64,000 nt of DNA from assembly GCA_016213935.1 (NCBI GenBank), contig JACQZG010000009.1, positions 647 to 64,646 of the forward strand. The letters run 5' to 3'. Below the pieces are notes generated by a model that was not told the DNA's origin, made no database searches, and was given only the letters and a program-made list of their open reading frames with translations. Made by a program: the position numbers and the translations under genes. Below are positions 1,428 through 55,084 of this stretch, one piece after another (position 1 is the first letter of the stretch; each line of letters starts with the position of its first letter). Source of the DNA: Nitrospirota bacterium (GTDB lineage Bacteria > Nitrospirota > Thermodesulfovibrionia > UBA6902).

Positions 1428-1434
1428 CGCGTTT

Positions 1435-3447: not shown

Positions 3448-3484
3448 TCGATGGCAAAACGTAAGAACGTATCGGAGTGAAAAT

Positions 3485-4252: not shown

Positions 4253-4373
4253 TAGTGTTAACTATATCTTAAATAAACAGGATTTTCAAGTTTAAAAAGT
4301 TTTTTTCGACGAAGTGAAAACATGTGCTTAACCGTCTAAAAAGTAGTATAATTCAAGCAAATGGCGTTTTAAT

Positions 4374-29229: not shown

Positions 29230-30741
29230 ATGTATAACTTTAACAGCCTCAAGTTCAAAATTTCCTTCGTTACTTTTCTCCTTATCTCCATAATAATGTC
29301 GGCAACCACATACAGGGATATCAAGTTGACAGAGCAAAAACTCATCAAAACGCAGCAGGAGAAGACTGTCCTCCTGTCTGACAGGATAGCTCACGGGATA
29401 ATGGTACTGATGCTGAAGAACAGGTGGCAGGAACTTCAGGCCATGATGCAGAATCTTGTAAAGGACAGCAATGAACTTAAGGAGATACGAATATTCCTTC
29501 CCACTGACGGGACAATAGTTGTATCCTCTGAAGAAAAAGAAATCGGGACAAAGATATACGCTGAGGATTTAATAAATTACAATAAAGGGAATTATGAGGA
29601 AGCTTTTTTGATAAATAAAGATGATTCCATTTATGCTTCAAAACTGACGCTTTTAAAAAACGCTCCTGCGTGTTTCAGGTGCCACGGGACAGAAAAGGAT
29701 GTGCTCGGAGTTATGGATGTCGAGCTCTCGCTTTTGAATGTGCATAACGCAATCGATGATTTCACCAAAGAGCATATCACGGATGCGTTTATCGGTTTTA
29801 TCATGTTAATGGGCACATTCCTCTTCTTGGTCGCGATCATGATTGACAGGCCTGTTAACAGGATGGTCAACACCATCAGAAGATTGGAGAAGGGGGATTT
29901 CTCAGCCAGAATGAACATCAGGTCTAAAGACGAGTTCGGGCTTCTCGCGGCCAGCTTTGACAATATGGTCGAGGCGCTTGAATCCGCAAAAAAAGAGCTT
30001 GAGCTTACCCATGAGATCAAGATGGAGAGGGCGGCAAAACTCGCAACTATCGGGGAGGTTGTTGCGGGCATTGCTCATGAGATAAAGAATCCTCTTACCG
30101 GAATAAGCTGCGCGGTGCAGCTTCTGCAGGTGGACATGAGCGAAGATGACAAGAACAGGGATGTCACTGAAAAGATACTGAGCCAGGTAAAGAGGCTTGA
30201 CAGGACAGTGAAAGACCTCCTTAGTTACGCCAAACCGAAGGCGGCAAAGTTTTTGCCTGCCAATATAGGCGAAGTTATTGACAGGGCAGTATTCCTTGTA
30301 TATCCGGAGGCAAAAAAACTTAACGTGAAAATCAATGCAACCGTTGCGCAAGACCTTCCTGATATCGTTATGGATACTGACCAGATGCAGCAGGTTGCGC
30401 TTAATTTGATGATAAACGCTCTGCAGGCTATGCCGGAGGGGGGCATACTGAATGTCAGCGTCTATCAGAAAAAATACAATGAAGTTCGCGATGAGTTGAA
30501 GTCCCCATTAAACTGTGAGAATGTTCTTGTTATGTCTTTTGAAGACACCGGCAAAGGGATCTCACAGGAGGACATGGAATATATTTTTGAGCCCTTTTTT
30601 ACCAGGAAATCAAAAGGGTCGGGGCTCGGGTTGTCCATAACGCAGAAGATCGTCCGTGAGCATGGCGGGGTGATTACATGCAGAAGCGCTCTTGGCAAAG
30701 GTTCTTTTTTTACGATATACTTGCCGATAACAAAGAAATAG
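29230..30741 (+). CDS. Sensor histidine kinase with periplasmic c-type-heme (CXXCH) sensor domain, HAMP, HisKA and HATPase
   Basis: TM1, ~150 aa periplasmic domain containing PACFRCHG, TM2, a HAMP domain, the H-box AHEIKNPLTGIS and the G-boxes GSGLGLSI. The sensor resembles Tll0287-like heme-c PAS-type sensor domains. Confidence 0.8.
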   Translation: MYNFNSLKFKISFVTFLLISIIMSATTYRDIKLTEQKLIKTQQEKTVLLSDRIAHGIMVLMLKNRWQELQAMMQNLVKDSNELKEIRIFLPTDGTIVVSSEEKEIGTKIYAEDLINYNKGNYEEAFLINKDDSIYASKLTLLKNAPACFRCHGTEKDVLGVMDVELSLLNVHNAIDDFTKEHITDAFIGFIMLMGTFLFLVAIMIDRPVNRMVNTIRRLEKGDFSARMNIRSKDEFGLLAASFDNMVEALESAKKELELTHEIKMERAAKLATIGEVVAGIAHEIKNPLTGISCAVQLLQVDMSEDDKNRDVTEKILSQVKRLDRTVKDLLSYAKPKAAKFLPANIGEVIDRAVFLVYPEAKKLNVKINATVAQDLPDIVMDTDQMQQVALNLMINALQAMPEGGILNVSVYQKKYNEVRDELKSPLNCENVLVMSFEDTGKGISQEDMEYIFEPFFTRKSKGSGLGLSITQKIVREHGGVITCRSALGKGSFFTIYLPITKK

Positions 30742-30744
30742 GGG

Positions 30745-32145
30745 GTGGCTGGAGTGCAAAGCGTCAAGATACTTGTTGTTGATGACGAGGAACTCATCAG
30801 ATCCTCAATAAAACAGTACCTCGAAAAAGAGGGGCATGAAGTCCTGACCGAAGGAACGGGAGAGGACGGTCTTAAGACATACAGGGCCGAACTCCCGGAT
30901 ATGGTATTTCTCGACCTTCATATGCCCGGGATAAACGGGATGGAGGTTTTGGAGGCAATTAAAAAAATAAACAAAGATACCGTTGTCATAATAATCACGG
31001 CTCACGGCGCGGTTGAGACAGCGGTATCCGCCATAAAACTCGGAGCGTTTGATTTCATAGAAAAGCCTTTTGAGTTCAGCCGGTTGTCAATTTTAATAAA
31101 AAAGGCCCTTGAAACTGTTGACCTCAAGAAAGAGGTAAATTTTTTACGGGGCGAGCAGCATCAGAAGTACAGGTTTGAAAGCATTATCTGTGAGTCCGAA
31201 ATAATGAAGAATATTATTTCGCTTGCCAAAAAGATAGCGGAAAGCGACGCAAACACGGTTTTAATACAGGGAGAGAGCGGGACCGGCAAGACCCTCATAT
31301 CAAGGGCAATTCATTACCACAGCGCGAGGGCTTCTAAACCTTTTGTCGAGATAACATGCACCGCGTTGCCCGAGACGCTTGTCGAAAGCGAGCTTTTCGG
31401 GTATGAGAAGGGAGCATTCACTGACGCTAAATCGGCAAAGAAGGGGCTTTTTGAACTGGCTGACGGAGGGACAGTCTACCTTGATGAAATAGGCGATATG
31501 AAGCCTTCCACACAGGCCAAGTTCCTTAAAGTTATTGAAGAGAAGGTCTTTATGAGGATCGGCAGCCTGAAAGAGACATCTGTTGATGTCAGGATCATCG
31601 CAACGACAAACAGGAACCTGAGGGAAGAGGTTATGAAGGGCAATTTCAGGGAGGATTTATATTACAGGCTTAATGTAATACCCATGGAGTTTCCCGCCTT
31701 GAGGAACAGAAAGGAAGATATATTGCCTACGGCCATGTATTTTCTTGAAACGATGAGGAAAGAGTGCAGAAGAAATATTACCGGCATCTCCAAAGATGTT
31801 CAGGGCCTTTTTTTAAAATACAACTGGCCCGGCAATATCAGAGAGTTGAAGAATGTTATAGAGAGGGTTTTTATTCTCGGGATCGAAGGGCAGCTTCTAC
31901 CTGAGCATCTTCCCCTTGAAATTGCCGGGGTCGGCAGGGAGGCTCCGGTTTTGGGGTCAGTTCATGATCACGATGAATTCAGGTTCCCTATTTCGGATGA
32001 CGGCATATCCATTGAAGAAGTTGAAAAAGAATTCATTATTCAGGCCCTTCGCATGACCGCAGAGAATCAAACAAAAGCGGCTAAACTTCTCGGCCTTTCA
32101 AGGGATGCCCTCAGGTACAGGATGCAGAAGTTCAAACTTCTTTGA
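30745..32145 (+). CDS. Sigma-54-dependent response regulator (NtrC/AtoC family: REC, AAA+ sigma-54 activator, Fis HTH)
   Basis: REC (ILVVDDEELIR...D at FLDLHMPG), Walker A GESGTGKTL, the GAFTDA motif and a C-terminal HTH (AAKLLGLSRDALRYRMQKF). GTG start; it follows the kinase stop by 3 nt. Confidence 0.9.
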   Translation: MAGVQSVKILVVDDEELIRSSIKQYLEKEGHEVLTEGTGEDGLKTYRAELPDMVFLDLHMPGINGMEVLEAIKKINKDTVVIIITAHGAVETAVSAIKLGAFDFIEKPFEFSRLSILIKKALETVDLKKEVNFLRGEQHQKYRFESIICESEIMKNIISLAKKIAESDANTVLIQGESGTGKTLISRAIHYHSARASKPFVEITCTALPETLVESELFGYEKGAFTDAKSAKKGLFELADGGTVYLDEIGDMKPSTQAKFLKVIEEKVFMRIGSLKETSVDVRIIATTNRNLREEVMKGNFREDLYYRLNVIPMEFPALRNRKEDILPTAMYFLETMRKECRRNITGISKDVQGLFLKYNWPGNIRELKNVIERVFILGIEGQLLPEHLPLEIAGVGREAPVLGSVHDHDEFRFPISDDGISIEEVEKEFIIQALRMTAENQTKAAKLLGLSRDALRYRMQKFKLL

Positions 32146-32174
32146 CCGTCTGCGGAACATATTGAAGTTTCATG

Positions 32175-34043
32175 TCACTGGGTTTTTTTTATGTAATTGC
32201 CTATCGCGGCTGCGACAACGTCCTTTCTCAGGGCTGTAAGGTTATGGTCATTAGGGTACAAGGCGAGGCCTTCATCAAGTACTGATTTCGACTTCTCATA
32301 ATAGATAAGGGAATTTTTTGGGTCGATTTCTCCAAGCCTGTAGTAAATCAATCCTTCGAGATTATACGAAGGAAGCCCCGGCCTCCTTATCTTCTCTTTC
32401 GCATTCCATAGCAGGAAACTATTTATAAAATCCATGTTCTCGGCAGGGTTTAAAGCGGCGTTAAGAGCTTTTCTGAACATATAATCAGGTTCAGCCCAGT
32501 TTTTCAAATAGATATTTTTTGTTGCCGGGAGAATTTGAGTTTCATCGAGGGCCTCCCCATTCATAAAGGCTTCTTTGTACTGTCCGTATTTCCTGTAATC
32601 GATAAATGTTTTTACGGTATAGGATGAGAGCCCCAGATAGAGCACTGAGAAGAATATAAGTATTGCCGCAGTCGCCTTGTTTCCGGTGCGAATTTCTTTT
32701 ACTCTCGTTTCATCGGATGTAACCATAAACAGCAGTATTATAAACAGGAGAAAGTGAGAGGCGGATAATTCCAGAGGGTATTCGACCATCGTATGCATGA
32801 GCACAGGGATAAGCAGCATAGCATATGCAAAAGTATTACTTACGCGGCCTGCTTTATACAGCATCTTGAAGATCCCAAACAGCGCGAAACCTAAGGCAAG
32901 CATTCCTGCTATCCCGCATTCGGCCAAAATATTAAAAAACTCATTATGAGGATGGCTTATGAATTCATTGTAAACCATTCCCTTGTACAGGGGATTTTCG
33001 GAGGAGACTTTTGCTTTTTTGTGCATAAAAACACTGCTGAAATTAGAGTATCCGTAGCCGAATAAGGGTTTATCCTTGAACATTTCATATGAGGTTTCGA
33101 AGAGAATCAGGCGTTCGACATAGGAACGCTGTGTTATGTCGGAAAGCCATTTGACTTTTTCCTTGGCGGTGCTGTCAGCGCTTTCAACCAGCCCTTTTGG
33201 GCCTGTCTTTGTGCCTGACACATAAAATCCGCAAGCTGTGCCGATAAAAAATATCATGATCCATATTGCTATATATTTTTTTGTCCGCAGATATGCAGAA
33301 TGGTTGGAAATCAAGAGCGCCAAAATGGCCAGCGCCAATCCTATAAGCCCAATCCTTGAATTGGCAAGGAACAGCCCTCCCGCAAGCGGCATAGCAGAGA
33401 TTAAAAATAGTGCCTTCTTTGCCTTTCCGAACAGTTTAAACCTTTCGGTTGTAATAAGGTGAACGCTTATCGCTATACCTGTAGCCGCCCATGAAGCAAA
33501 GAGGTTCTTCTGCTGGAAAGCGCCGCCGACATCAGGTATATATTTGGTCACTTTTACCATGGCAAGAGCGAAACTGATGCCAAAAGAATGTATAGCGTAG
33601 GAATTGACCAGAGCTTTCAATATGACCATGGTTGATTCAATAACTGCTGACATGAGTATCACTATAAGAACAGTTACTTTTTCTCTCTCACTGAATCTGA
33701 ACTGGTGAAGGCTTAACCATATTATTACTGCGGCAATCACGCGCAGGGATTGAATTATAAATATTTCCCTATTTAGGATTGGATTAAATACGGCTGTAAT
33801 CAGGAGGAGAGATGTGTAGGCTGCGGCATATTTAAAATACGACGGCACGATTAGTGCTTTTCTGCTTGTAACGAATGCAGCTGCAATAAGGATCAATGTG
33901 AAGATGCCTATCCAGACTATATATTCCCGAGGATGCGCAAGGGTGCCCCCCATATTCGGGATGGCAATATGCATAATAACGAGCAGGATAACGGATAACA
34001 CCGTAATCGGTAAATATTCAAACGCCTTTTGTGATTTTGTCAA
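32175..34043 (-). CDS. O-antigen ligase (Wzy_C) family polytopic membrane protein with C-terminal TPR-like soluble domain
   Basis: ~10 TM helices and HPHNEFFNILAE (conserved His of the WaaL/PglL type). The C-terminal ~200 aa are helical and repeat-like. It is a paralog of the upstream gene. Confidence 0.55.
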   Translation of the reverse strand: MTKSQKAFEYLPITVLSVILLVIMHIAIPNMGGTLAHPREYIVWIGIFTLILIAAAFVTSRKALIVPSYFKYAAAYTSLLLITAVFNPILNREIFIIQSLRVIAAVIIWLSLHQFRFSEREKVTVLIVILMSAVIESTMVILKALVNSYAIHSFGISFALAMVKVTKYIPDVGGAFQQKNLFASWAATGIAISVHLITTERFKLFGKAKKALFLISAMPLAGGLFLANSRIGLIGLALAILALLISNHSAYLRTKKYIAIWIMIFFIGTACGFYVSGTKTGPKGLVESADSTAKEKVKWLSDITQRSYVERLILFETSYEMFKDKPLFGYGYSNFSSVFMHKKAKVSSENPLYKGMVYNEFISHPHNEFFNILAECGIAGMLALGFALFGIFKMLYKAGRVSNTFAYAMLLIPVLMHTMVEYPLELSASHFLLFIILLFMVTSDETRVKEIRTGNKATAAILIFFSVLYLGLSSYTVKTFIDYRKYGQYKEAFMNGEALDETQILPATKNIYLKNWAEPDYMFRKALNAALNPAENMDFINSFLLWNAKEKIRRPGLPSYNLEGLIYYRLGEIDPKNSLIYYEKSKSVLDEGLALYPNDHNLTALRKDVVAAAIGNYIKKTQ

Positions 34044-34044
34044 T

Positions 34045-35805
34045 TTATTTAATTTCCTTTGCGTCGGCAGATTTCATCTCTTGTTTTAACTTAACCATAC
34101 TGCTCCAGCCAGGGTAAAGATCCAGCCCTTCCTCAAGAAGTTTATATCCCTCTTCCCTTCTTCCTACGACAAACAAAGCAAATGACCCTCTTTCGTATAC
34201 ATGCGGATGCGGGAACACTTCTTTCTCCTTAATGAGAAAGTCAGCATAGTCTTCTATTAACTTCTTGTCGCCCCTCATAAAACCGATCCTGTAATTGGCA
34301 TCAAAATAAAATCTCTTTGCAAGCTGTTCAAGGTACATATTGCCGGTTGCTGGTTCAACAAGTTCAGGCCTGACAATTCCTATAATAAGCAAGTCCTGAT
34401 ATTTTTTCATGGCTCTCTGGGCAATGAGGGTTGTTATTGACAGATACGATATAATTACAAAGAGCGTGGCGGCCGCAGTAAACGCGCTTGCCCGTAAGAG
34501 TCCGGCTGGTCTAATCTTAATTTTCTTTACAAAAGATGACGACGGCAGGTAAAGCAGAAAGAGAAAGAGCGCCCAGTGGGGCATGGACTGATAAAGGGAA
34601 TAACTCACTTGTGTATCAAATGCTATCGGGAACAAAAAAGCCGCGTAAGTTCCGCCCTGTTTTCTTCCAAGTTTTATAAGGCATACCGTAAAGGCGGCTC
34701 CAATCAGCATCAGCCCGGCACTGCCCATTAGGCCGGACTCTACCGTCCTGTACAAAAACTCGTTATGCGGATGAGAGGTAAAGGCAGCTTCATAGGGATA
34801 TTCAGGGTGTTCTTTTGCAAGCCTGCTTCGGTAATGCATGAACCTGCTGCCGAAACTGCCGGGTCCGTGGCCGGTCAGCGGCCTGTCTTTTATCATGTTT
34901 ACAGCAGTAATGTACATCGGTACCCTCATGTCCGTAACCTCGTCTCCTGCTACACTCTCCATCGTCATCCCGATCTTTTGTCCTACGGAACTGAGCGCCG
35001 AGTCCCGTTTGTAGTAATACTTCTCAGCCGCCACACTGCCTGCTATTCCAAATACTATCATCAGCAACCATATGGCGAGATAGAGCGCCTTCTCTTTGTA
35101 ACTCCGATACCTTGCCCATAAGAGTATAAGTGTTCCGGCGCCGGCCTCTATAACTCCTGCCCGTGAGCCCGTCAGAAAAATGATAAAGCACATGAGCATA
35201 ACAAAAAGATAAAAAAGAGTTTTAAGCCATCTGCCGAATCCCTTAAAAATATCTCCGGTTAAGAGATAAAGCGATATCGCAATCGTGGTAGCAAGGTATG
35301 ATGCAAGTAGGTTCTGGTGCTGGAAATTGCCAAATATTTTGTTCGGGGCAGGCGCGACTATAAGAAATATGGCAGTATCAGGATTAAAATACTGAAACAG
35401 GCTTATCAGTGCCTCAGTCATGCCGGAGATAACTATCGCGTATAAAAGCCGTTCCTTCTCATCATTTGAAAACTCAAACTGATGGAGGGAAGCAAAAAAT
35501 ATTATCCCGCCGATAAGCCCGGCTGTCTCAAATATGAAGACATGACGGTCTATTATCGGATTAAAAATTGCTGACGAAAGCGATGATAAGAGGAATAGAA
35601 TTATATATAAGGAAATGCGCGGGACTGAGATGTCCCATTGATTGAATATATGTATCACTGAAAGAAGTACAAGTCCTGACAGCGTTATCCAGACAAGATA
35701 TGCCGCAGGCAGTACAAGGGGGGCGCCGAAGTTCCTGATGGTTATGTGAGAAACCGCCAGAAAGAGCAGCGCGAGAACCCATAAATGGATTTTCTTTGTC
35801 ATCAA
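34045..35805 (-). CDS. O-antigen ligase (Wzy_C) family polytopic membrane protein with C-terminal soluble domain
   Basis: LTGSRAGVIEAG and HPHNEFLYRTVESG motifs typical of O-antigen ligase/O-oligosaccharyltransferase proteins, plus ~10 TM helices. Confidence 0.6.
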   Translation of the reverse strand: MMTKKIHLWVLALLFLAVSHITIRNFGAPLVLPAAYLVWITLSGLVLLSVIHIFNQWDISVPRISLYIILFLLSSLSSAIFNPIIDRHVFIFETAGLIGGIIFFASLHQFEFSNDEKERLLYAIVISGMTEALISLFQYFNPDTAIFLIVAPAPNKIFGNFQHQNLLASYLATTIAISLYLLTGDIFKGFGRWLKTLFYLFVMLMCFIIFLTGSRAGVIEAGAGTLILLWARYRSYKEKALYLAIWLLMIVFGIAGSVAAEKYYYKRDSALSSVGQKIGMTMESVAGDEVTDMRVPMYITAVNMIKDRPLTGHGPGSFGSRFMHYRSRLAKEHPEYPYEAAFTSHPHNEFLYRTVESGLMGSAGLMLIGAAFTVCLIKLGRKQGGTYAAFLFPIAFDTQVSYSLYQSMPHWALFLFLLYLPSSSFVKKIKIRPAGLLRASAFTAAATLFVIISYLSITTLIAQRAMKKYQDLLIIGIVRPELVEPATGNMYLEQLAKRFYFDANYRIGFMRGDKKLIEDYADFLIKEKEVFPHPHVYERGSFALFVVGRREEGYKLLEEGLDLYPGWSSMVKLKQEMKSADAKEIK

Positions 35806-36156: not shown

Positions 36157-36303
36157 TTATAAATAGCCGTGAGGATTAATCAAATGAAAGATAAACAAAA
36201 AATAAATACAGGAGGGTTGCCTATGGAACACAAAACCAAATCCATTTTAGATGGAGAATCAACACTATACTTTATTAAAAGTATAACACCAAAAGGAGGA
36301 ATT

Positions 36304-37299
36304 ATGAAAAAAGTACTGTTCACAATGTTCGTAGTACTTGCGGCCGCGTTCATGCTGTATGGAATCGCAGACGCAATCTCCGGCGTGTGCTCCGGATGCC
36401 ACACAATGCACAACAGTCAGGACGGCGCTGCAGTAAACGGTTCAGGCCCCGCAGACATCCTGCTCAAGAGCGACTGTATGGGCTGTCACACCACAGCGTC
36501 AGCAGTTGGACCGAGGGTTGATAATGCGACCTTGCTGTCAGCAGGCTCATTTGCAGATGCCTTTGTAACATCAGACACAAACACCCACAACGTTGAGGAC
36601 CTCGTAGGATTTAATGCCGGCGGCGCTGACGACATTCTTACCTCTAACGATCCACCGGGAGGAAGCGCGGCTGTTTTAACCAAGTTCTCTGGTGCTAACC
36701 AGTTGAAGTGCGCCGGTAGTAACGGCTGTCACGGTAGCCATGATAGTAAAGCTACAAGCTGGGCAGGCATACAGGGTTATCACCATGCAGGCGGGTCAAT
36801 CTATAAGTTCCTTGAGGTTGCTACTGACAACGAAGGCGCAGGCACCGCTGTTGCAGGCACAAAAGATTCAACCTACGAATCAGGCGGAGCAACCGCATCC
36901 AAACATAATATTTACGTGTCCGACGCGGCAACAGGCATCAGCGCATTCTGCAATAACTGCCATGATGTCTTCCACGGCGCGGCGACCACTGACCTGACCA
37001 CCAACGGCCTTTGGAACCGCCACCCGACCGATATATCAATTGCTACTTACCTTGGGGCTTCGGGTGTAACAGTTGATTATGTGAATAACCCGTTTGCATT
37101 CACAGCGGCATACGCAACCACATTAAGCACAACCTCGGCAACAGGTTATGACGCAACTAATGGTTATGTAATGTGTCTGTCTTGCCATCGCGCACACGCG
37201 TCTGAGTACGCAGACCTGCTCAGGTTTAACTATGCTTCACAGAGCGCAGGCGGCGGCGGTACAACAGGATGTCTCGGATGTCACGTGAATCAGAGGTAA
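36304..37299 (+). CDS. OmcS-like hexaheme c-type cytochrome (nanowire-type), paralog 1
   Basis: Strong RBS (AAAGGAGGAATT-ATG) and a signal peptide (MKKVLFTMFVVLAAAFMLYGIADA). The mature N-terminus [17 protein letters not shown] matches the OmcS CEGCHTMHNS start. C-terminal MCLSCHRAHASEYADLLRFNY matches OmcS NCLSCHRAHASGFDSMTRFN. Heme sites: CSGCH, CMGCH, C-x5-CH (CAGSNGCH), CNNCH, CLSCH, CLGCH. Confidence 0.75.
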   Translation: MKKVLFTMFVVLAAAFMLYGIADAISGVCSGCHTMHNSQDGAAVNGSGPADILLKSDCMGCHTTASAVGPRVDNATLLSAGSFADAFVTSDTNTHNVEDLVGFNAGGADDILTSNDPPGGSAAVLTKFSGANQLKCAGSNGCHGSHDSKATSWAGIQGYHHAGGSIYKFLEVATDNEGAGTAVAGTKDSTYESGGATASKHNIYVSDAATGISAFCNNCHDVFHGAATTDLTTNGLWNRHPTDISIATYLGASGVTVDYVNNPFAFTAAYATTLSTTSATGYDATNGYVMCLSCHRAHASEYADLLRFNYASQSAGGGGTTGCLGCHVNQR

Positions 37300-37308: not shown

Positions 37309-37373
37309 CAAGGGGAACCCGTTGGGGTTCCCCTTGCATCTGAGTGGTTAAGCAACTCTTAACCACTCAGATG
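37309..37373 (+). other. Two consecutive perfect stem-loops between OmcS-like paralogs (terminator/attenuator or RNA processing element)
   Basis: CAAGGGGAACC-cgt-GGTTCCCCTTG, immediately followed by CATCTGAGTGGTTAAG-caact-CTTAACCACTCAGATG (16 bp stem). No clear U-tract follows. Confidence 0.5.
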
Positions 37374-37397
37374 CAAGATACGAAAGCAAGGCATATT

Positions 37398-38609
37398 ATG
37401 ATTAAAATAATCATAAAAGAAATGGCAAGAATAAATAATACCAATAGGTATGTTTTAATATTTATTGCAGCCTTGGCTTTAGTTGCTTCTTCAGTAAATG
37501 CAAATATTACAGGCGTATGTTCAAACTGCCATACAATGCATAATAGTCAGGACGGAGCAGCTGTTGTTGGGTCAGGCCCAAACGATGTTCTTTTAACTTC
37601 AGATTGTCTTGGTTGTCACGGCCAGGGCGGCAGCCAGAAGATAATCAGTATCGGGGGAAGTGAGATTCCCCAAGTATTGCATTCTGACGGCACAGGCGAC
37701 CTTGCAGGAGGAAACTTTAATTATATCGGCACACTCGGCGACAATAGAGGCCATAACATCGTTGATCTCGTTAATGGAGATGATGTGTTAGATATACCGC
37801 CCGGGGCTGAATATGGCGAGCATGCCAATCCCGCAAAGATGGTCACTGATTCCGTGCTTACATGCGCAGGCTCTAACGGTTGCCACGGGTTTAGGGCGAT
37901 TGGAGGGAGTTCGAATCTTCAGGCATTAAAAGGGGCGCACCATAAGAATATTACAACTGATTCCACAAGCGGATTTGATGACGATTACAACAGCTATAGA
38001 TTTCTCAGGAAAGTGAAGGGGCATGAGAATGACGGGCAGGTAAATTCCTCAACAAAATGGCAGAATGCCGATGCCAATAACCATAATGAATATTTCGGCG
38101 CTACGTCTCCTCTTGAGTTTGACGCAAACTGCGCAAAGTGCCATTCAAATGCGCCGTCAGCCAACATTGTTCCCCCGCAAAATACTATGAGCGGCTTCTG
38201 CGGCACATGCCATATGAATTTTCATCTCTTAACAGGAACAGAAACCTCTGATATGGGCATAGGAGATTCAACTGTATCTCCATTCAGGAGGCACCCGACT
38301 GATGTTGTGTTGCCTGGGGCAGGTACAGAATATAATAACTATACATCGTACAGTGTGGAGGCTCCTGTAGCGAGGGGCGTGGTTCCTGACAGTATGAGCA
38401 ATGTCGTAACACCCGATAACAGCGGCGTACAGGGTGCGATTGTAATGTGCCTTTCCTGCCATAAGGCGCACGCATCTCAATATCCCGATATGCTGAGGTG
38501 GGATTATGACGGTATGGTTGTCGGCACAACCGGGGCTTCAGCCTTTTTTTCCATTGTCGATAGAAACCGCAGGTATTTATTGCATCTCAGCTTATTTATT
38601 GAAGAATAA
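37398..38609 (+). CDS. OmcS-like hexaheme c-type cytochrome, paralog 2
   Basis: Signal peptide ([27 protein letters not shown]). [26 protein letters not shown]-x5-CH (CAGSNGCH), [14 protein letters not shown] and [23 protein letters not shown]. The start is ambiguous (ATG at 37398 or 37422). Confidence 0.7.
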
Positions 38610-38647: not shown

Positions 38648-39628
38648 ATGCGTTCAATAAGACTTCAAACAAGAAAGATAATGACATTGATTAAACATGT
38701 TTTAAATCCATCTGTCATTATTGTTTTATTTGTTTTATTTGGAACAGTCAGACCTGTTTCATTAAATGCCCAGGGGCCTCTTGTCAGGTATTATATGGCA
38801 TTAGAGTATGACGAAAATGATGAGAGACTTGTCAGGCCCTCTTTTGCGCAGTATGAAAATGTAATGAATGAAATTTATGTAATTGATGCCAGGCAAAGGG
38901 TGCTGATATATACTTCTGACCTTTTTCCGGTTCTTTCACTCGGCAAGAGCCGTAAGATACTGAATCCCGAAGGTTTGACAGTTGATTCTAACGGCAATCT
39001 TTATGTTGTTCAGACAGCCACGCCTGAAGATTTGAGAAACAGGGTTTCCGTTTACAATGCCTGCCTCAAATGGGAGCGTGATATCTTTTTTGAGGGCTTT
39101 GAAGGCGCTGATAAATTTGTGCCGTATCGCCTTGCAAAAGATTCAAAGGGCAATCTTTTTGTTGCAGGAATACGCTTCCCGGGAGTTCTGATATTTGATG
39201 CTGATTATAACTTGGTAGAAATAATATCTCCGCAGGAAAATGATAGGAAGGCGTTGATTATGAATGTCCATATTGATGACACGGGCCGGATATATCTTGT
39301 AAGCGAGGAAGAAGGGCATATTTATGTTTATGATGAAAATCGAAAGTTCATCTATCAGTTTGGGGAAAAAGGCGGCAGTTCCGGCAAGTTGAGCAGGCCG
39401 CGTGCCGTGGCAGTTGATAATAACAGGGGATGGCTTTATGTCGTTGATTATATGAGACACACGGTCAATACATATGACCGCAACGGCATGATGTTATTCG
39501 AGTTTGGCGGAATGGGATGGGGAGAAGGCTGGTTCAGGTTCCCTACAGACATTAGCGTTAATAAGGAAGGCGATGTGATGGTTACAGACCTTTTTAACCA
39601 GAGAGTACAGATCTTTAAGCCTTACTGA
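38648..39628 (+). CDS. Secreted NHL-repeat beta-propeller protein
   Basis: Signal peptide and repeated NHL-like units (SNGNLYVVQ..., RPRAVAVDNNRGWLYVVDYMRHTVNTYDRNG, VMVTDLFNQRVQIFKP). Confidence 0.8.
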   Translation: MRSIRLQTRKIMTLIKHVLNPSVIIVLFVLFGTVRPVSLNAQGPLVRYYMALEYDENDERLVRPSFAQYENVMNEIYVIDARQRVLIYTSDLFPVLSLGKSRKILNPEGLTVDSNGNLYVVQTATPEDLRNRVSVYNACLKWERDIFFEGFEGADKFVPYRLAKDSKGNLFVAGIRFPGVLIFDADYNLVEIISPQENDRKALIMNVHIDDTGRIYLVSEEEGHIYVYDENRKFIYQFGEKGGSSGKLSRPRAVAVDNNRGWLYVVDYMRHTVNTYDRNGMMLFEFGGMGWGEGWFRFPTDISVNKEGDVMVTDLFNQRVQIFKPY

Positions 39629-39642
39629 CGGTTGAAAATTTC

Positions 39643-41244
39643 ATGTCAATATTATTTTGCAATTTGAGGCGGTTTTTCAGAAATAAAAATTTGGTGTTGT
39701 GTATTATTATTTTTATATACGGCTGCTCCATCGTTTTAAATGATAATAGTGTAACTGAAGACCAGAAGCCTCCCGATTACAACAGCCAGATAACGCTTTA
39801 TTTTAATGGCCATGAGAAGACATCTCTTGATTTGGAATTTCTTTTAACCGGGGTTGACATGGTTTTTGTTGATGGAACATCAATAGGGATTCTTAAAGGG
39901 CCTGTAACATTGAGGTCATCTGAAGTTAAGGGCAGGCAGGTGCGCCTTGGCGAGATATATGTCCCTGAAGGCGAATGCAAAGAAGTCCGTTTGCATATCA
40001 CTAAAGCATCGATAATAACCCCTGACGGCACTGCATCACTTTCAATTTCTTCAGATACGGTATCCATGCCTTTTAATCTTGTCATTAAAAGGAGGCAAAA
40101 TTCCACGCTATTTTTAAATTGGAACCCTGACGGGTCTGTGACAGATAACTATCTTTTTACCCCTTTGTTCTATTTGGGAAAAGAGGCCCCAGACCTTATT
40201 GGTCAGCTTCTGTATGTTACCAATGAAGATTCTAATAATGTGTCGGTCATAAACCGGTATTACGGCAAGGTCGTCGGAACCGTGCTCGTAGGCAAAAGGC
40301 CGAGGGGTATTGCCGCTGGATTGAAGGAAGACCGGTTAAGGGTATATGTTGCAAATTCAGGTTCAAACAGCGTATCGGTAATTGATCCCAATACAAATAC
40401 AGTAGAACATGAAATCCCTTTAAGATTCGGTAGGGAACCGGTCGCGATTGCTGTTGCGAAAGGGCCTTTTGGGAGAGAACTCGTTTTCGTGGCTAATTAT
40501 GCTTCCGGCTCGGTATCTGTGATAGACCCTTTATCTTTTCAGGAGCTTGAGAGAGTCGGGGTCGGAAACGGGCCTGTGGCTGTAGCCGCGGATCCTCCCG
40601 TCGAATTTTATTCTGGTTCCGCATCTCTCAGCATTGAAGAGGTTAACTTAATAAAAGATTATAGAGGCAAATTTGTTAATGTCTATGTTGCCAATAAAGA
40701 GTCAAACAGCGTATCAGTAATTCGAATGGACATGCTTAATAACAGGGTGGAAGATGTTCAGAATGTCGCTGTTGAATGGAGCCCTGTCGCATTGTCCGTT
40801 GACTTCAAAAGAGGCAAAGTCTATGTCGCAAATTACGGCTCTGACAGGCTGTCTGTCATAGATATCGTATCGCTAATACGCGGGGATGGTTCTGCAGAAA
40901 TAAGCTCAATTGAAAATACCGGCCGTTACACAGTGGGAGTCGCAACCAATCCATTCATTGACAGGCTCTACCTGCTTAAATCCGTCTCGTCCGAAGTTTT
41001 ATTTTTAAACCCTTATTCTGATGCAGGAAATGATATATTTTCTGTATCAGGCTCTGTAATGGGTATTGCCGCAACAGGTCTTTCGCCGAGATCATTACAA
41101 TTTGACCTTCAATCCAGAAATCTCTTTGTGGTTAACAGCGGCTCCGACAGCGTTTCAATCATTGACGTCACTACCCGTAATGAAAAAAAGAGAATTTCCG
41201 TGGGGCGTAATCCTTACGGCGTAACAATGTTCTCGGTGAAATGA
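39643..41244 (+). CDS. YVTN-family beta-propeller repeat lipoprotein
   Basis: Lipobox (IFIYGC). Repeated ~40 aa units of the YVTN type (LYVTNEDSNNVSVINRYYGKV, VYVANSGSNSVSVIDPNTN, VFVANYASGSVSVIDPLSF, VYVANKESNSVSVI, LFVVNSGSDSVSIIDVTT). Confidence 0.75.
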   Translation: MSILFCNLRRFFRNKNLVLCIIIFIYGCSIVLNDNSVTEDQKPPDYNSQITLYFNGHEKTSLDLEFLLTGVDMVFVDGTSIGILKGPVTLRSSEVKGRQVRLGEIYVPEGECKEVRLHITKASIITPDGTASLSISSDTVSMPFNLVIKRRQNSTLFLNWNPDGSVTDNYLFTPLFYLGKEAPDLIGQLLYVTNEDSNNVSVINRYYGKVVGTVLVGKRPRGIAAGLKEDRLRVYVANSGSNSVSVIDPNTNTVEHEIPLRFGREPVAIAVAKGPFGRELVFVANYASGSVSVIDPLSFQELERVGVGNGPVAVAADPPVEFYSGSASLSIEEVNLIKDYRGKFVNVYVANKESNSVSVIRMDMLNNRVEDVQNVAVEWSPVALSVDFKRGKVYVANYGSDRLSVIDIVSLIRGDGSAEISSIENTGRYTVGVATNPFIDRLYLLKSVSSEVLFLNPYSDAGNDIFSVSGSVMGIAATGLSPRSLQFDLQSRNLFVVNSGSDSVSIIDVTTRNEKKRISVGRNPYGVTMFSVK

Positions 41245-41288
41245 GATTTTCCAAATAAACGGTTACTATTGTTAATCAGCAGGGAACA

Positions 41289-43529
41289 GTGAGTAATAGA
41301 CGTTTAATAAACGCTCTTCTTTTTTTGATTTTATTTATCGGCGGTTCCTCGGCAGTCTTCGCTGACCTGAACGGAAACGCAAGCATTGACTATACCTCGT
41401 TTCAGGAGGATAGGGGCGATGCCAGTATTACCCAAAACGATACTCAGAAGCGTCTAAATTTCTATTTCACTAAACCGATAACCTCCCTTCTTTCTTACCA
41501 GCTAACTTTGAGGGCTGAGATTTCCGATTCTGATTCCAGTGATTCACAGGGCGCTGATTATACCTCTCTTAAGGAAGTCTATGAACCCGGAATAGATTTT
41601 TCGCTTAAAAATGTTATGTACGAATTCGATTCGGGGTTTCATCACAGAGATGAGCTTTATTCTAATTCAGGACAGGCTTATGATAACAAAAGAATCACTG
41701 ATTTTTTCTACAGCCGGTTTGCTGTCAGCCCTCTTAATCTCCCCACTTTTTCCGCTGAACTTAGCAGGATTAAGGAAAGCGATAACATCATGCTCGACAG
41801 GCAAAACAGTATTTATTTTTTGAGGTCATCTTATGAACTGCCTTCTCCCGAGCTTGACTTCAGGGCAAATCTCAATTATTCACATGCAGAAGAAGAGAAC
41901 CCCGGGAAAATATTGTATAAAAACGTCAGCGATGCTTACTCCGGTGATTATCAGTTATCTGATTCACGCATTTTTTTGTCTGGGAAAATAATACTAAATG
42001 GAAGTTACAGGGGCAATTTCAGCAGTGCCGACAGCACGAGTTATTCCTCAGATACCGGATATGTCCTCTTTGAGCGCACCAAACTCGGCGGCCTCCACGC
42101 AAAAGGAACGGCGCTGAATCCTGACGTTGACAGTTTGCCTTCTGAAACAGCTCTTGCTGATGATAATTATATTCTTTCGACATCAATTAATCTCAGCATA
42201 TCAGGTTCTGACGAATATCATAATATAGGGATTTGGGTGCCTTCTGACGATTCTGTCGAGAAACTGTACATTTACGTTAACAAAGATGTAACAGGCGATT
42301 TTTCTTTAAAAAGCATCTCGAACTGGAAAGTCTATAAGAGCGATTTTAACCTGGCAGGCACATGGCTTCCGGTAACGATCAGCAGTGTTTCGGTTTCTCT
42401 ATTTGATCTTGCAAACACCATTTATCGTTACGAAATCGAATTTTCAGCTCCGCATAATGCGAGATATTTCAAAGCGGTTAACATGGATGTCTCCGATATT
42501 TCCAATGTTGCTGTCACAGAGATAGAGGCTTACGGGTCAGAACTCATTCCTGATTCCGGAATATTGACGAGCTCTTCTAACGCACTCGGCCAGAGGCTGG
42601 ATTTTTTATCGGTCTTTCAGCCATTAAGCAAATTCAGATTTAGTTTTAATTATTCGATTGATAAGTCTGACCAGAATCCGTCATCTGTTTTTAGCTCGAT
42701 CACATCTCTTTTTACAAGCATTTTTTCCAAATCAAGGAGCGAAGAAGATCAATCTGATTCCAGCAGCACAATCAATAAAGGCCTCGCACTTAATGCAAAC
42801 TGGTTAACTCATAAATTTCTCACGACCAATTTTCGTTTTCAGCGGAATGAATCATATGACAATGCCTTTAAGACTGATAGGGCGGCTACTACTTATGAAC
42901 TATCTTTTAATTCATCGCCGATTGAAACGCTTAACGCAAGTTTTAGTATGGTAAGAGGGGATAGTTATCAATTTGAAGTAAAAGAGTCGACATATGATTC
43001 GGCAATATTAAGCCTTGGCACCCGATTATACAGGGATTTGAATATGGTGACGGATATAGGATATTCACGGTCTGACTCCGTAAGCGGGGGAGATTCAACT
43101 TCAAGGTATATTTCAGGTAGCATTGATTCGGTTTTTACAGATAAATTGGAGGGTAGCTTGAGCTACAATATAAACTGGAAATCGTCTGGGGAATCAGAAG
43201 TTCAGTCAAAAAGCAGTTCGGCAAAGATAACCTATCGTCCAGGCAGATTTGTTAATTTATCCTGTGATTTTAATTATTCTTCTAATGACGCAGGTTCCGC
43301 CATGTCGGAAATAATAACTGCGGAATGGCGGCCTGTCCCCGTTTTGCAGTTGAATGCCAATTACCAGCACTCAAGTACAAGCTCAGCGAGTATTACAAAG
43401 GATGTTTTTTCGGGCAACGGCACATGGCATATTAAAAAGTTTTTACATGCGCAGCTTTCATTTTTATATGAGAAAGAAGGCGAAAGCACGGAACAGAATG
43501 TCAGTACCGGCATGAGATTATTGTTTTAA
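41289..43529 (+). CDS. Large Ser/Asp-rich secreted protein, predicted outer-membrane beta-barrel (porin-like)
   Basis: Signal peptide (ALLFLILFIGGSSAVFA). 746 aa with alternating polar/aromatic beta-strand-like segments and a C-terminal ...TGMRLLF (terminal Phe, typical of OM beta-barrels). Confidence 0.5.
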   Translation: MSNRRLINALLFLILFIGGSSAVFADLNGNASIDYTSFQEDRGDASITQNDTQKRLNFYFTKPITSLLSYQLTLRAEISDSDSSDSQGADYTSLKEVYEPGIDFSLKNVMYEFDSGFHHRDELYSNSGQAYDNKRITDFFYSRFAVSPLNLPTFSAELSRIKESDNIMLDRQNSIYFLRSSYELPSPELDFRANLNYSHAEEENPGKILYKNVSDAYSGDYQLSDSRIFLSGKIILNGSYRGNFSSADSTSYSSDTGYVLFERTKLGGLHAKGTALNPDVDSLPSETALADDNYILSTSINLSISGSDEYHNIGIWVPSDDSVEKLYIYVNKDVTGDFSLKSISNWKVYKSDFNLAGTWLPVTISSVSVSLFDLANTIYRYEIEFSAPHNARYFKAVNMDVSDISNVAVTEIEAYGSELIPDSGILTSSSNALGQRLDFLSVFQPLSKFRFSFNYSIDKSDQNPSSVFSSITSLFTSIFSKSRSEEDQSDSSSTINKGLALNANWLTHKFLTTNFRFQRNESYDNAFKTDRAATTYELSFNSSPIETLNASFSMVRGDSYQFEVKESTYDSAILSLGTRLYRDLNMVTDIGYSRSDSVSGGDSTSRYISGSIDSVFTDKLEGSLSYNINWKSSGESEVQSKSSSAKITYRPGRFVNLSCDFNYSSNDAGSAMSEIITAEWRPVPVLQLNANYQHSSTSSASITKDVFSGNGTWHIKKFLHAQLSFLYEKEGESTEQNVSTGMRLLF

Positions 43530-43534
43530 TAATA

Positions 43535-44164
43535 ATGCGCAATAATGAAGCTTTAAATAAAAATATCAATGGGTTATATTATTCTATGTTTAATTCGGCA
43601 ATCAGGCATGGTTCATTGATTTTTCGTTTTTCGTTTTTATTATTTTTTGTAACATACGGGTGCAGCGTTATGAGCGCGTATGTAAGGCCCGGATTTGATA
43701 AAGCTTCAGTGAAAAAAATAGCGGTTCTTCCTTTTGAAAATTATACCGAAGATAAATTTGCAGGCCAGAAGATGAGGGCTAAGGTTATGATCGAGCTTCT
43801 TAATTCCGGATTCGAGGTTGTGGAAGAGGGGGAGGTTACAAGGATATTGAAGGAGTTAAAAGTGTATCAGGTCGCATCAATAACCGTTTCAGACATTCAG
43901 GAACTTGGCAAGAGGCTCGGCATTGACGCGGTGGTTAAAGGTTCAACAGGGGAGATGGAAGATAAGAAAGGCGTAGCCTTAACATATCCTGAAGTATCCA
44001 TTAATTTAAGCATACTCGATGCAAAATCCGGAGATATTGTCTGGTCCGTGTCGCATAGTGCCGGCGGTCCGAGTTTCTGGACAAGGCATTTTGGAACAGA
44101 GGGGGATACCCTGGATAAGGCCGCTTATAAAGTTGTAAAAGAGTCTATTAATACATTAAAATAA
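43535..44164 (+). CDS. Small lipoprotein, paralog family member 1 (hypothetical)
   Basis: Lipobox (FVTYGC). KIAVLPFENYT ... GIDAVVKGS; similar to the next two genes. An alternative start is the ATG at 43586. Confidence 0.5.
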   Translation: MRNNEALNKNINGLYYSMFNSAIRHGSLIFRFSFLLFFVTYGCSVMSAYVRPGFDKASVKKIAVLPFENYTEDKFAGQKMRAKVMIELLNSGFEVVEEGEVTRILKELKVYQVASITVSDIQELGKRLGIDAVVKGSTGEMEDKKGVALTYPEVSINLSILDAKSGDIVWSVSHSAGGPSFWTRHFGTEGDTLDKAAYKVVKESINTLK

Positions 44165-44182
44165 ACACATTTATATAATATA

Positions 44183-44779
44183 ATGAACTTAATATTGAAG
44201 TTGAAATATAATACAATTTTTATTTATCTAATAATTGGCTGTTCGTTTTTTTTAAACGGATGCTTCGCCTCTCAACCGACATATCATATTAAGGAGGATG
44301 TTGATTTCAGTTATATAAAAAGGGTAGCTATATTGCCGTTGCAGAATTTTACCAGCGACAAAAACGCTTCTGATGCGGTTAGGCAGGTGCTTATCACAGA
44401 ATTTTTGTCTTCAGGGTTGGCCGATGTTGTTGTCCCGGGAGACGTTCTGGCTGCCCTTAATAATATAGGCGTTAGCTCTATTTCCTCTCCAAGTATTGAA
44501 GAAATAAGATCAATCGGAAAATTTCTGAAAGTACAAGCTGTCATTACGGGTTCTGTAGACAAATTAGCTGAGATCAGGAGCAGTAATGTTACTTCGGCCG
44601 AGGTTACTTTGACTTTAATGATGGTGGACACAGGAGCAGGCGATATTCTCTGGTCCGTAACGGCCACAAGCGGCGGGGCAGGCTTTATGTCAAGGCATTT
44701 TGGCGCTGATACCCCGACATTGAGTGAAACGATTTCAGATGTTGTAAAAAGGTCTATTCAGACATTGACAGGGAATTAA
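44183..44779 (+). CDS. Small lipoprotein, paralog family member 2 (hypothetical)
   Basis: Lipobox (LNGC). RVAILPLQNFTSD ... VQAVITGSV ... ILWSVT ... HFGADTPTL parallels member 1. Confidence 0.5.
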   Translation: MNLILKLKYNTIFIYLIIGCSFFLNGCFASQPTYHIKEDVDFSYIKRVAILPLQNFTSDKNASDAVRQVLITEFLSSGLADVVVPGDVLAALNNIGVSSISSPSIEEIRSIGKFLKVQAVITGSVDKLAEIRSSNVTSAEVTLTLMMVDTGAGDILWSVTATSGGAGFMSRHFGADTPTLSETISDVVKRSIQTLTGN

Positions 44780-44819
44780 TTTTTACTTGCTGTGTGTAAT
44801 ATAATGTGTGTAATATAAT

Positions 44820-47521: not shown

Positions 47522-47537
47522 GTCAACAGCTTATCGT

Positions 47538-51926: not shown

Positions 51927-51949
51927 CAGGCTTGGTTTATTGTCATAAT

Positions 51950-55068: not shown

Positions 55069-55084
55069 TATAGGGGGTGGAAAT

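What the first reader, a model, noticed from the sequence alone, without database searches (positions are those of the whole stretch)
36709..36732. Conserved non-canonical C-x5-CH heme site replacing a CXXCH in all three OmcS-like paralogs
At the position where OmcS has a canonical site (HCSSCHDPHG, from memory), the three paralogs read [14 protein letters not shown] (36709-36732), [13 protein letters not shown] (37863-37886) and NCSGTYGCHGHNG (51333-51356). That is Cys, five residues, Cys-His. The insertion is conserved across diverged paralogs, so it is not a sequencing artefact. Extended motifs (CX3CH, CX4CH, CX15CH) are known to bind heme via dedicated lyases or stretched loops. A conserved CX5CH in a nanowire-type cytochrome would be unusual.
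Basis: seen in the sequence. Interest (0 to 1): 0.7.

Follow-up and report, generated by a model that had tools for sequence, protein, structure and literature searches.

The report
Stretched heme site in OmcS-like cytochromes
The Cys-x5-Cys-His motif is real and marks the third heme site of a very large family of OmcS-like "nanowire" cytochromes from sulfur-cycling anaerobes, but published work has already counted such motifs as heme sites without testing them, so this is a tidy family signature, not a new kind of system.

Summary
All three genes encode C-x5-C-H at the stated coordinates.

**What the proteins are**
- The motif sits at the OmcS heme-3 CXXCH position.

**How widespread the motif is**
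- It is a family rule, not a local oddity. 355 of 365 cluster representatives read C-[A/G/S/D]-G-x-x-G-C-H-G.
- The family has 593 clusters at 50 % identity with E<=1e-30. It occurs in Nitrospirota, many Thermodesulfobacteriota, and a few other MAGs.
- Rare relatives have CX6, CX8, CX10 or CX12 at the same site, or a canonical CXXCH. The spacer therefore looks like an expandable loop between two fixed cysteines.

**Context**
- The genes head a cluster collinear with the Geobacter omcS-companion (osc) nanowire-assembly cluster.
- No heme lyase gene lies in the window, nor in 78 of 81 related loci.

**Most likely reading**
- An ordinary covalent bis-His heme 3 with a Gly-rich loop, matured by the general machinery. 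Occupancy is untested.

**Prior work**
- Deng 2018 and Chen 2025 already counted CX2-5CH motifs as heme sites in OmcS-like proteins.
- OmcZ has a CX14CH site.

**Caveat**
- Two of the three window paralogs look damaged.

Interest is moderate to low.

The parts
36304..37299 (+). OmcS-like hexaheme cytochrome, paralog 1. It is intact and has a Sec signal peptide. Heme motifs in order: [33 protein letters not shown].
   Evidence: (100 % identical to P0001, 331 aa).
36709..36732 (+). The finding: C136-A-G-S-N-G-C142-H143, a CX5CH motif at the heme-3 position of paralog 1.
   Evidence: (C136, G138, G141, C142, H143 and G144 invariant in 64 sequences).
37344..38609 (+). OmcS-like paralog 2 (likely start near 37422). 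It belongs to the seven-heme subtype, with an extra CAKCH between heme 3 and heme 4. The CX5CH lies at 37863-37886. The last heme motif is missing.
   Evidence: 62 % identical to P0108, which ends ...GTGCFACHTEKDGI.
50907..51926 (+). OmcS-like paralog 3. The CX5CH (CSGTYGCH) lies at 51333-51356. The reading frame is interrupted by an in-frame TAA at 51594-51596 inside the heme-4 motif (CA*CH).
38648..39628 (+). NHL-repeat beta-propeller protein, related to the 315-aa gene upstream of Geobacter omcS.
   Evidence: E 7e-15.
39643..41244 (+). OscD-like beta-propeller (Lactonase/YNCE).
   Evidence: 27 % identity over 483 aa, E 6e-34, to the Geobacter gene after GSU2501.
41289..43529 (+). OscE-like 746-aa protein with no Pfam domain.
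   Evidence: E 5e-16 to the 718-aa Geobacter protein.
43535..45896 (+). Three small genes: 43535-44164 and 44820-45896 are GNA1162/LpoB-like lipoproteins, and 44183-44779 has no Pfam match. The first two (43535-44164, 44183-44779) are OscF-like by blastp.
   Evidence: E 4e-14 and 9e-18.
45887..47521 (+). SurA-like peptidyl-prolyl isomerase. It sits at the position of the folding factor in the osc cluster.
   Evidence: The same position is seen in L001. The osc roles are as cited.
47478..50778 (+). A 26-heme cytochrome (47478-49490; compare the 26-heme GSU2495/OscI) and a cytochrome with 16 CXXCH motifs (49441-50778).
   Evidence: The 26-heme GSU2495 is mentioned.
29230..35805 (.). Upstream genes kept in synteny: a histidine kinase and a sigma-54 response regulator (+ strand), and two Wzy_C/PglL-like ligase genes (- strand).
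   Evidence: same order in L001; response regulator 40 % identical, E 2e-81, to the one upstream of Geobacter omcS.

Best explanation
The motif is the covalent attachment site of heme 3 in a secreted, OmcS-like hexaheme cytochrome. The two cysteines (C136, C142) are proposed to form the two thioether bonds, and H143 to act as the proximal iron ligand, as in an ordinary CXXCH.

The difference from CXXCH is a Gly-rich spacer three residues longer (consensus C-A-G-x-x-G-C-H-G). It folds back on itself as a tight hairpin or loop, so the two cysteines stay side by side. The loop tip is free to vary and, in a few relatives, to grow.

Heme is most likely attached by the organism's general cytochrome c maturation system, not by a dedicated lyase.

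The protein belongs to a large sister family of Geobacter OmcS. Its genes head an osc-like assembly and secretion cluster, so it is probably exported and possibly polymerised into a heme wire.

What is shown: site homology, conservation, fold and synteny. What is inferred: heme occupancy, hairpin geometry, maturation route and filament formation.
For: **Site homology.** hhalign of the family (A1) against the OmcS family (A2) gives probability 99.9 and E 1.5e-34. It aligns L-t-C-A-G-x-x-G-C-H-G with L-x-C-x-S---C-H-D-P-H-G of OmcS heme 3.

**Heme count.** There are six motifs in the same order as OmcS, and every cysteine of paralog 1 lies in a heme motif (12 Cys).

**Constraint.**
- C, C, H and three Gly are invariant in 64 sequences with 37-67 % identity to the first sequence.
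- 355 of 365 cluster representatives carry C[AGSD]GxxGCHG. In the 248 representatives with a five-residue spacer the His after the second Cys never changes. A plain disulfide would not need that His.

**Loop behaviour.**
- The same site reads CX6 (P0367), CX8/CX10 (L058), CX10 (P0272), CX12 (P0352) or a canonical CQGCH (P0370) in otherwise similar proteins.
- Seven-heme paralogs show spacings 2 to 6 there in one alignment.

**Structure.**
- The AlphaFold2 model has mean pLDDT 77.9, and about 84-85 at residues 131-150.
- It puts 134-137 and 141-143 in paired strands around the spacer.

**Polymerisation residue.** The CxxCH-T-M-H string, containing the equivalent of OmcS His16, is kept in 354 of 365.

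**No dedicated lyase nearby.** There is no WWD-type gene in the window. Only L029, L033 and L052 among 81 loci have one.

**Other non-canonical motifs.** Other cytochromes in the window carry CX3CH and CX4CH motifs, so non-canonical spacings are not confined to this family in this organism.

**Precedents.**
- OmcZ heme 1 is bound through a 14-residue loop.
- From my own memory of the abstract of Allen et al. 2009 (Biochem J 419:177; citation confirmed, text not held): E. coli Ccm attaches heme to engineered CXnCH with n up to 6.
Against: - No experiment or coordinate-level model shows heme at this site. The structure tool returned no coordinates, so Cys-Cys-His geometry could not be measured.
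- Two cysteines facing each other across a hairpin is also the classic geometry of a disulfide.
- As I recall Allen 2009, n = 5 and 6 gave side products in E. coli.
- HMMER gives an alternative ungapped alignment, in which C-A-G-x-x-G-C-H-G lies over C-S-S-C-H-D-P-H-G. The family His then lies over the second OmcS His, so the 'three-residue insertion' history is not the only possible one.
- The set of conserved non-motif histidines differs from OmcS, so the distal ligand of heme 3 is unknown.
- Filament formation is unproven for any member of this family.
Confidence: 0.72

Rival explanations
1. The site binds heme through only one thioether (C142) plus H143, as in single-cysteine heme c motifs. 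C136 is free or has another role, such as redox sensing or metal binding.
For: The spacer is longer than the natural motifs known to be matured cleanly (CX2-4CH). From my memory of Allen 2009, heme attachment was imperfect for n = 5-6. Nothing separates one thioether from two.
Against: The first Cys is as invariant as the second. It is present in all 248 representatives that have a five-residue spacer, and it is kept at the base of the loop when the loop grows to CX6-CX12. It aligns with the first Cys of OmcS heme 3 in both the gapped and the ungapped alignment.
Confidence: 0.1
2. The site has lost its heme. C136 and C142 form a structural disulfide that staples a hairpin, and the protein is a pentaheme.
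For: The AF2 model places the two Cys on facing strands. Several surveys list 'pentaheme' or '5x' OmcS homologues.
Against: The His after the second Cys and the flanking Gly are invariant, which a disulfide would not require. The '5x' counts are explained by CXXCH-only counting. From established knowledge of the OmcS structure, heme 3 lies in the middle of the heme chain, so its loss would break the wire. A canonical CXXCH reappears at this site in P0370 and in OmcS itself.
Confidence: 0.07
3. Heme is attached here, but only with the help of a dedicated heme lyase paralog encoded elsewhere in the genome, as for MccA CX15CH or NrfA CXXCK.
For: Dedicated lyases are the rule for CX15CH and CXXCK (established knowledge; the motif list is). 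Only 64 kb of this genome could be inspected. L029 and L033 have CcmC/CcmF within 6 kb of family genes.
Against: No lyase gene lies in the window or in 78 of 81 related loci covering 820 kb. A few related loci carry CcmC/CcmF-type genes and one carries a CcsA-type gene, so the family occurs next to both maturation systems. The spacer is short, and engineered CX5CH is a Ccm substrate (my own memory of Allen 2009).
Confidence: 0.12
4. The motif is an assembly or sequencing artefact, or a chance string.
For: This MAG shows defects in two of the three paralogs.
Against: The same motif appears in three diverged paralogs and in hundreds of independent assemblies.
Confidence: 0.01

Closest known systems
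OmcS of Geobacter sulfurreducens (GSU2504; PDB 6EF8/6NEF), the hexaheme nanowire subunit
   Same: - Six heme motifs in the same order.
- The same N-terminal C-x-x-C-H-T-M-H-N-S string, including the His16 equivalent.
- The same PPG...L-x-C context at heme 3, and the same C-L-S-C-H-R-A-H at heme 5.
- The companion gene cluster is collinear.
   Different: - About 28 % identity by blastp.
- About 100 residues shorter.
- Heme 3 is CX5CH instead of CXXCH.
- The N-terminal His2 and the invariant D-P-H after heme 3 are not conserved; other histidines are conserved instead (H160, H161, H201, H224).
- No filament has been shown for this family.
OmcS-like 'sister clade' of sulfur-cycling bacteria: Desulfurivibrio alkaliphilus DA_402/DA_756/DA_765 (Chen et al. 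2025, PMC12545173), and probably Desulfovibrio ferrophilus DFE_0450/DFE_0464 (Deng et al. 2018, PMC5815863)
   Same: - Extracellular OmcS-like cytochromes found outside Geobacter, in sulfur-respiring lineages.
- Motifs counted as CX2-5CH.
- DA_756 and DA_765 are listed as '5x' and are 346-358 aa, which fits five CXXCH plus one CX5CH.
- Desulfurivibrionaceae and Desulfovibrionaceae MAGs carry the CAGxxGCHG form (L057, L007).
   Different: I could not obtain those sequences, so membership in the same family is inferred, not shown. This window comes from a Nitrospirota (Thermodesulfovibrionia-like) MAG. Those papers do not single out or test the CX5CH site.
OmcZ heme 1 (CX14CH) of Geobacter sulfurreducens
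   Same: An extended CXnCH motif in a solved cytochrome nanowire. The extra residues form a loop between the two cysteines.
   Different: An unrelated fold, a 14-residue loop, and a known role in the subunit interface. Here the loop is 5 residues and its role is unknown.
CX3CH / CX4CH heme sites of cytochrome c3-type and Geobacter cytochromes, and the CX11/CX15/CX17CH sites (list in Soares et al. 2024, PMC11492766)
   Same: Two cysteines and a histidine with a non-standard spacer that still bind heme c.
   Different: CX5CH is absent from that published list. The strings 'CX5CH' and 'CXXXXXCH' gave no hit in the full-text library. The long motifs need dedicated lyases, and no such gene was found near this family.

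Membership tests
OmcS-type hexaheme (nanowire) cytochrome superfamily | Significant sequence homology to OmcS over most of its length | tested here: met
   phmmer E 3.1e-9; profile against PDB E 7.1e-23; hhalign probability 99.9, E 1.5e-34, 301 columns.
OmcS-type hexaheme (nanowire) cytochrome superfamily | OmcS fold | tested here: met
OmcS-type hexaheme (nanowire) cytochrome superfamily | Six c-type heme motifs in conserved order | tested here: met
   The spacing pattern 2,2,5,2,2,2 occurs in 321 of 365 family representatives, against 2,2,2,2,2,2 in OmcS proper. One of the six is CX5CH.
OmcS-type hexaheme (nanowire) cytochrome superfamily | Histidine three residues after heme-1 His (OmcS His16), which ligates heme 5 of the next subunit | tested here: met
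   CxxCH-TMH is present in 354 of 365, and H36 is at least 90 % conserved. The role of His16 comes from established knowledge of the 6EF8 structure.
OmcS-type hexaheme (nanowire) cytochrome superfamily | Polymerisation into an extracellular filament | not testable with these tools
   Needs microscopy or cryo-EM.
osc (omcS-companion) assembly cluster (Shen et al. 2025, as cited) | OmcS-like gene followed by propeller, large unknown protein, lipoproteins, prolyl isomerase and a 26-heme cytochrome | tested here: met
   The order is collinear with the Geobacter locus L082. blastp gives E 6e-34 (OscD-like), 5e-16 (OscE-like) and 4e-14 / 9e-18 (OscF-like). The PPIase and the 26-heme cytochrome match by domain or heme count only. 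The same order is seen in L001.
Covalent heme c binding site | Cys...Cys-His with thioether-bound heme | not testable with these tools
   The sequence requirements are met and invariant. Occupancy needs mass spectrometry or a structure.
Non-canonical heme sites that depend on a dedicated lyase (MccA CX15CH, NrfA CXXCK type) | A specialised CcsA/CcmF/NrfE-type lyase gene linked to the cytochrome gene | tested here: not met
   There is no WWD-motif protein in the window and no Ccm/Ccs Pfam hit among 48 window ORFs. Only 3 of 81 related loci have one. The rest of the genome was not available.

The most novel reading that the evidence does not exclude
C-A-G-x-x-G-C-H-G is a genuine, naturally selected CX5CH class of heme c attachment site. 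It is absent from current motif lists. It is matured without a dedicated lyase, and it is diagnostic of a phylum-spanning sister family of OmcS nanowires. Its hairpin can expand to CX12CH and acts as a functional surface element, for example a subunit contact or partner docking site, as the CX14CH loop does in OmcZ.
Probability: 0.45. Interest if true: 0.5.

Novelty: new member of a known kind. Interest (0 to 1): 0.35.

Why it matters
**Heme counting.** Heme counts drive how multiheme cytochromes are annotated. A CXXCH-only count calls this whole family 'pentaheme'. That hides its kinship with OmcS and suggests a broken heme chain. Recognising C-A-G-x-x-G-C-H-G as the heme-3 site gives a simple sequence marker for a very common OmcS-like family. 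The family occurs in Nitrospirota and sulfate- or sulfur-cycling Thermodesulfobacteriota, some of which are implicated in mineral respiration, corrosion and syntrophy.

**Maturation.** For cytochrome c maturation, the family would be a natural test case for how far the general machinery tolerates spacer length.

**Limits.** Neither point is a surprise to specialists. Extended motifs are known, and published regexes already count n = 5.

Tried and rejected
- **Literature strings.** Full-text searches for 'CX5CH', 'CXXXXXCH' and 'OmcS-companion' returned nothing.
- **Papers not held.** Allen 2009, Wang 2019 and Shen 2025 are not in the library. The Deng 2018 supplements are not held either. I therefore could not read the OmcS ligand table, the osc paper, or the DFE_0450/0464 heme counts.
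- **Link to D. alkaliphilus.** I searched with a Desulfurivibrionaceae family member to find proteins labelled D. alkaliphilus. None appeared in the top 120.
- **A graded series at the third motif.** I first read the third motif of the seven-heme paralogs as a graded 2-to-8 series at the same site. One alignment put those motifs elsewhere and another put them at the site. I treat that series as suggestive only. I rely instead on the six-heme proteins, where the site is unambiguous.
- **Apparent CXCH motifs.** The apparent CX1CH motifs at heme 4 in the P-series family representatives turned out to be C-C-x-C-H, a canonical site with an extra Cys. I dropped them.
- **Frameshift in paralog 3.** I rejected this: it is an in-frame TAA.
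- **Model geometry.** The structure tool gives no coordinates, so Cys-Cys-His distances in the model could not be measured.

Full report
**Observation**

They read [32 protein letters not shown] and LNCSGTYGCHGHNGR, which is Cys, five residues, Cys-His. They lie in three ORFs on the + strand:
- 36169..37299. The true start is 36304, because the product is identical to the 331-aa NCBI MAG protein HY809_02680 from a 'Nitrospirae bacterium'.
- 37344..38609.
- 50907..51926.

The three products are 41-47 % identical to each other. The six-frame translation of the window has 110 CXXCH and only 7 CX5CH strings, so three at homologous positions is not chance.

**What the proteins are**

- phmmer against all PDB sequences finds only OmcS (6EF8/6NEF, E 3.1e-9). 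A family profile raises this to E 7.1e-23.
- A profile-profile comparison of 64 family members (A1) with 48 OmcS-type proteins (A2) gives probability 99.9 and E 1.5e-34 over 301 columns.
- Paralog 1 has a signal peptide and twelve cysteines, all in six heme motifs in the OmcS order.
- It has the N-terminal string C-x-x-C-H-T-M-H-N-S. In OmcS this string holds His16, the residue that ligates a heme of the neighbouring subunit (established knowledge of 6EF8). The string is kept in 354 of 365 family representatives.

**The site**

hhalign places L-t-C-A-G-x-x-G-C-H-G on the OmcS heme-3 site L-x-C-x-S---C-H-D-P-H-G, which implies three extra residues between the cysteines. HMMER offers an ungapped alternative: the nine residues C-A-G-x-x-G-C-H-G lie over C-S-S-C-H-D-P-H-G. 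Either way the first Cys is the heme-3 Cys and the site is the same.

**Conservation**

- All 120 closest database relatives carry the motif.
- In A1, C136, G138, G141, C142, H143 and G144 are invariant, while identity to the first sequence ranges from 37 to 67 %.
- Over 365 cluster representatives gathered read C-[A/G/S/D]-G-x-x-G-C-H-G, and 321 have exactly the spacing pattern 2,2,5,2,2,2.
- OmcS-type proteins are all 2,2,2,2,2,2, including GSU2501/OscC.
- A profile search of 1.84 billion 50 %-identity representatives finds 2059 proteins at E<=1e-3, 1250 at E<=1e-10 and 593 at E<=1e-30.
- A scan of species-representative genomes found at least 542 loci. The CX5CH form occurs in Nitrospirota/Thermodesulfovibrionia, many Thermodesulfobacteriota (Desulfobulbia, Desulfobacterales, Desulfovibrionaceae, Thermodesulfobacteriales, Desulfofervidaceae, Desulfuromonadales), a Spirochaetota MAG, a Sulfurovum MAG, and one contig binned as Methanoperedens.

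**Loop behaviour**

At this site a few six-heme relatives have a different spacing:
- CX6 (P0367)
- CX8 and CX10 (L058)
- CX10 (P0272)
- CX12 (P0352)
- canonical CQGCH (P0370)

. The ends C-A/S-G and G-C-H-G stay put and the middle grows. This fits the AF2 model, which pairs residues 134-137 with 141-143 as two short strands around the spacer.

Seven-heme paralogs next to the six-heme genes show spacings 2-6 at what one alignment takes to be the same site. A second alignment disagrees, so I give that little weight.

**Context**

Downstream of paralogs 1 and 2 lie, in order:
- an NHL propeller
- a Lactonase/YNCE propeller
- a 746-aa protein without Pfam domains
- three small genes (two GNA1162/LpoB-like lipoproteins and one with no Pfam match)
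- a SurA-like prolyl isomerase
- a 26-heme cytochrome
- a cytochrome with 16 CXXCH motifs
- paralog 3
- further cytochromes and b-type cytochromes

. The Geobacter omcS locus (L082) has the same order after its OmcS-like genes. Its proteins match by blastp at E 6e-34, 5e-16 and 4e-14 / 9e-18, and the upstream sigma-54 regulator matches at E 2e-81. This is the omcS-companion (osc) cluster that Shen et al. 2025 linked to nanowire folding and secretion, as cited. I could not read that paper. A second Thermodesulfovibrionia MAG (L001) has the identical arrangement.

No cytochrome c maturation gene is in the window:
- A WWD-motif scan of all six frames found none.
- Pfam scans of 48 ORFs found none.
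- Among 81 related loci (820 kb), only L029 and L033 (CcmC and CcmF) and L052 (CcsA-like) have one.

**Mechanism**

The best reading is an ordinary covalently bound bis-His heme 3 whose two cysteines are separated by a Gly-rich hairpin. The arguments for occupancy are:
- The site is homologous to OmcS heme 3.
- The Cys-Cys-His triplet is invariant. A disulfide would not need the His.
- There is no other free cysteine.
- Canonical CXXCH reappears at the site in a few relatives.
- From knowledge of the OmcS heme chain, removing heme 3 would break the wire.

Maturation by the general system is suggested by the missing linked lyase, by finding Ccm-type genes in two related loci and a Ccs-type gene in a third, and by CX3CH and CX4CH motifs in other cytochromes of this window. 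From my memory of the abstract of Allen et al. 2009 (reference confirmed), E. coli Ccm attaches heme to engineered CXnCH with n up to 6, though less cleanly for n = 5-6.

Heme occupancy, hairpin geometry, the maturation route and filament formation are all inferred.

**What is known**

- Soares et al. 2024 list the known motifs as CXCK, CX2CK, CX3CH, CX4CH, CX11CH, CX15CH and CX17CH, without CX5CH. They also mention 'pentaheme' OmcS homologues.
- The strings 'CX5CH' and 'CXXXXXCH' occur in no paper of the library.
- Deng et al. 2018 searched D. ferrophilus for 'CXnCH (n = 2 to 5)' and described a new clade of extracellular cytochromes in sulfur respirers.
- Chen et al. 2025 used the same rule for D. 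alkaliphilus. [quoted passage not shown] One of their tables lists DA_756 and DA_765 as 'OmcS-like 5x'.
- OmcZ binds heme 1 through a 14-residue loop that contributes to the subunit interface.

So the family, the OmcS kinship and the practice of counting n = 5 as a heme site are already in print. What I did not find in print is the statement that C-A-G-x-x-G-C-H-G is the near-universal heme-3 signature of the family, or any experimental test of it.

**Caveats on this window**

- Paralog 3 has an in-frame TAA inside heme motif 4 (FFCA*CHG, 51594-51596).
- Paralog 2 ends ...[15 protein letters not shown]... where its 62 %-identical relative P0108 ends ...GTTGPAAGTGCFACHTEKDGI. A T7 run lies at about 38544-38550, and another frame reads ...AGIYCISAY..., which looks like a decayed CxxCH.
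- These may be assembly errors or real decay. Only paralog 1 is clearly intact.

**Verdict**

The feature is a conserved family trait of a known kind of protein, and it has been partly anticipated in the literature. I rate it as a new member of a known kind, with interest 0.35.

Noticed in passing
window 51594-51596: Paralog 3 is interrupted by an in-frame TAA exactly at an X position of its heme-4 motif (SISFFCA*CHGNFH). The frame continues intact to 51926. This could be a nonsense mutation, an assembly error or readthrough.
   Followed up: partly
window 38540-38609: Paralog 2 lacks the last heme motif found in its closest relative P0108. A T7 homopolymer lies at about 38544-38550, and another frame reads AGIYCISAY, resembling a decayed CxxCH. 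This may be a frameshift plus decay, or a sequencing error.
   Followed up: partly
window 32175-35805 (- strand); L001 5866-9485: Two tandem Wzy_C / PglL-like (O-antigen ligase or protein O-glycosylation ligase) genes sit immediately upstream of the OmcS-like genes, in the window and in a second Thermodesulfovibrionia MAG. This hints that the secreted cytochrome, or its assembly, involves glycosylation.
   Followed up: partly
window 38648-50778 vs L082 8809-21305: The window carries a gene block collinear with the Geobacter omcS-companion (osc) cluster. It includes a 26-heme cytochrome (47478-49490), like GSU2495.
   Followed up: yes
L058 (Desulfobulbaceae MAG JAWSUG010000006.1); P0272, P0352, P0367: At the same heme-3 site some relatives have CX6CH, CX8CH, CX10CH and CX12CH (for example CVSREDTAGCH and CSGGSGSGAGSLGCH). 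The loop can grow well beyond five residues.
   Followed up: partly
window 51896-53230, 55037-56161, 61530-62582: Other multiheme cytochromes in the window carry CX3CH (CGNECH, CSYNCH, CLVECH) and CX4CH (CSSLQCH, CSNIECH) motifs.
   Followed up: no
L029 ~2400-4200 and L033 ~1240 (- strand); L052 ~10700: CcmC/CcmF-type genes (L029, L033) and a CcsA-type gene (L052) lie within a few kb of family genes in these three loci only. This may be coincidence, or a local link to cytochrome maturation.
   Followed up: no
L036 (contig CAYSLW010000147.1, binned as Candidatus Methanoperedens): A six-heme CX5CH family member sits on a 5.8-kb contig assigned to an archaeal MAG. This could be horizontal transfer or a binning error.
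   Followed up: no
P0399-P0442 and others (15 family representatives): Heme motif 4 reads L-C-C-E/Q-C-H, a canonical CXXCH with an extra cysteine at X1. It first looked like a contracted CXCH.
   Followed up: yes
window 1366-5069: A small cyclic-nucleotide signalling group unrelated to the finding: a CHASE2 adenylate/guanylate cyclase, a class II phosphodiesterase-like gene and a Crp-family regulator.
   Followed up: no
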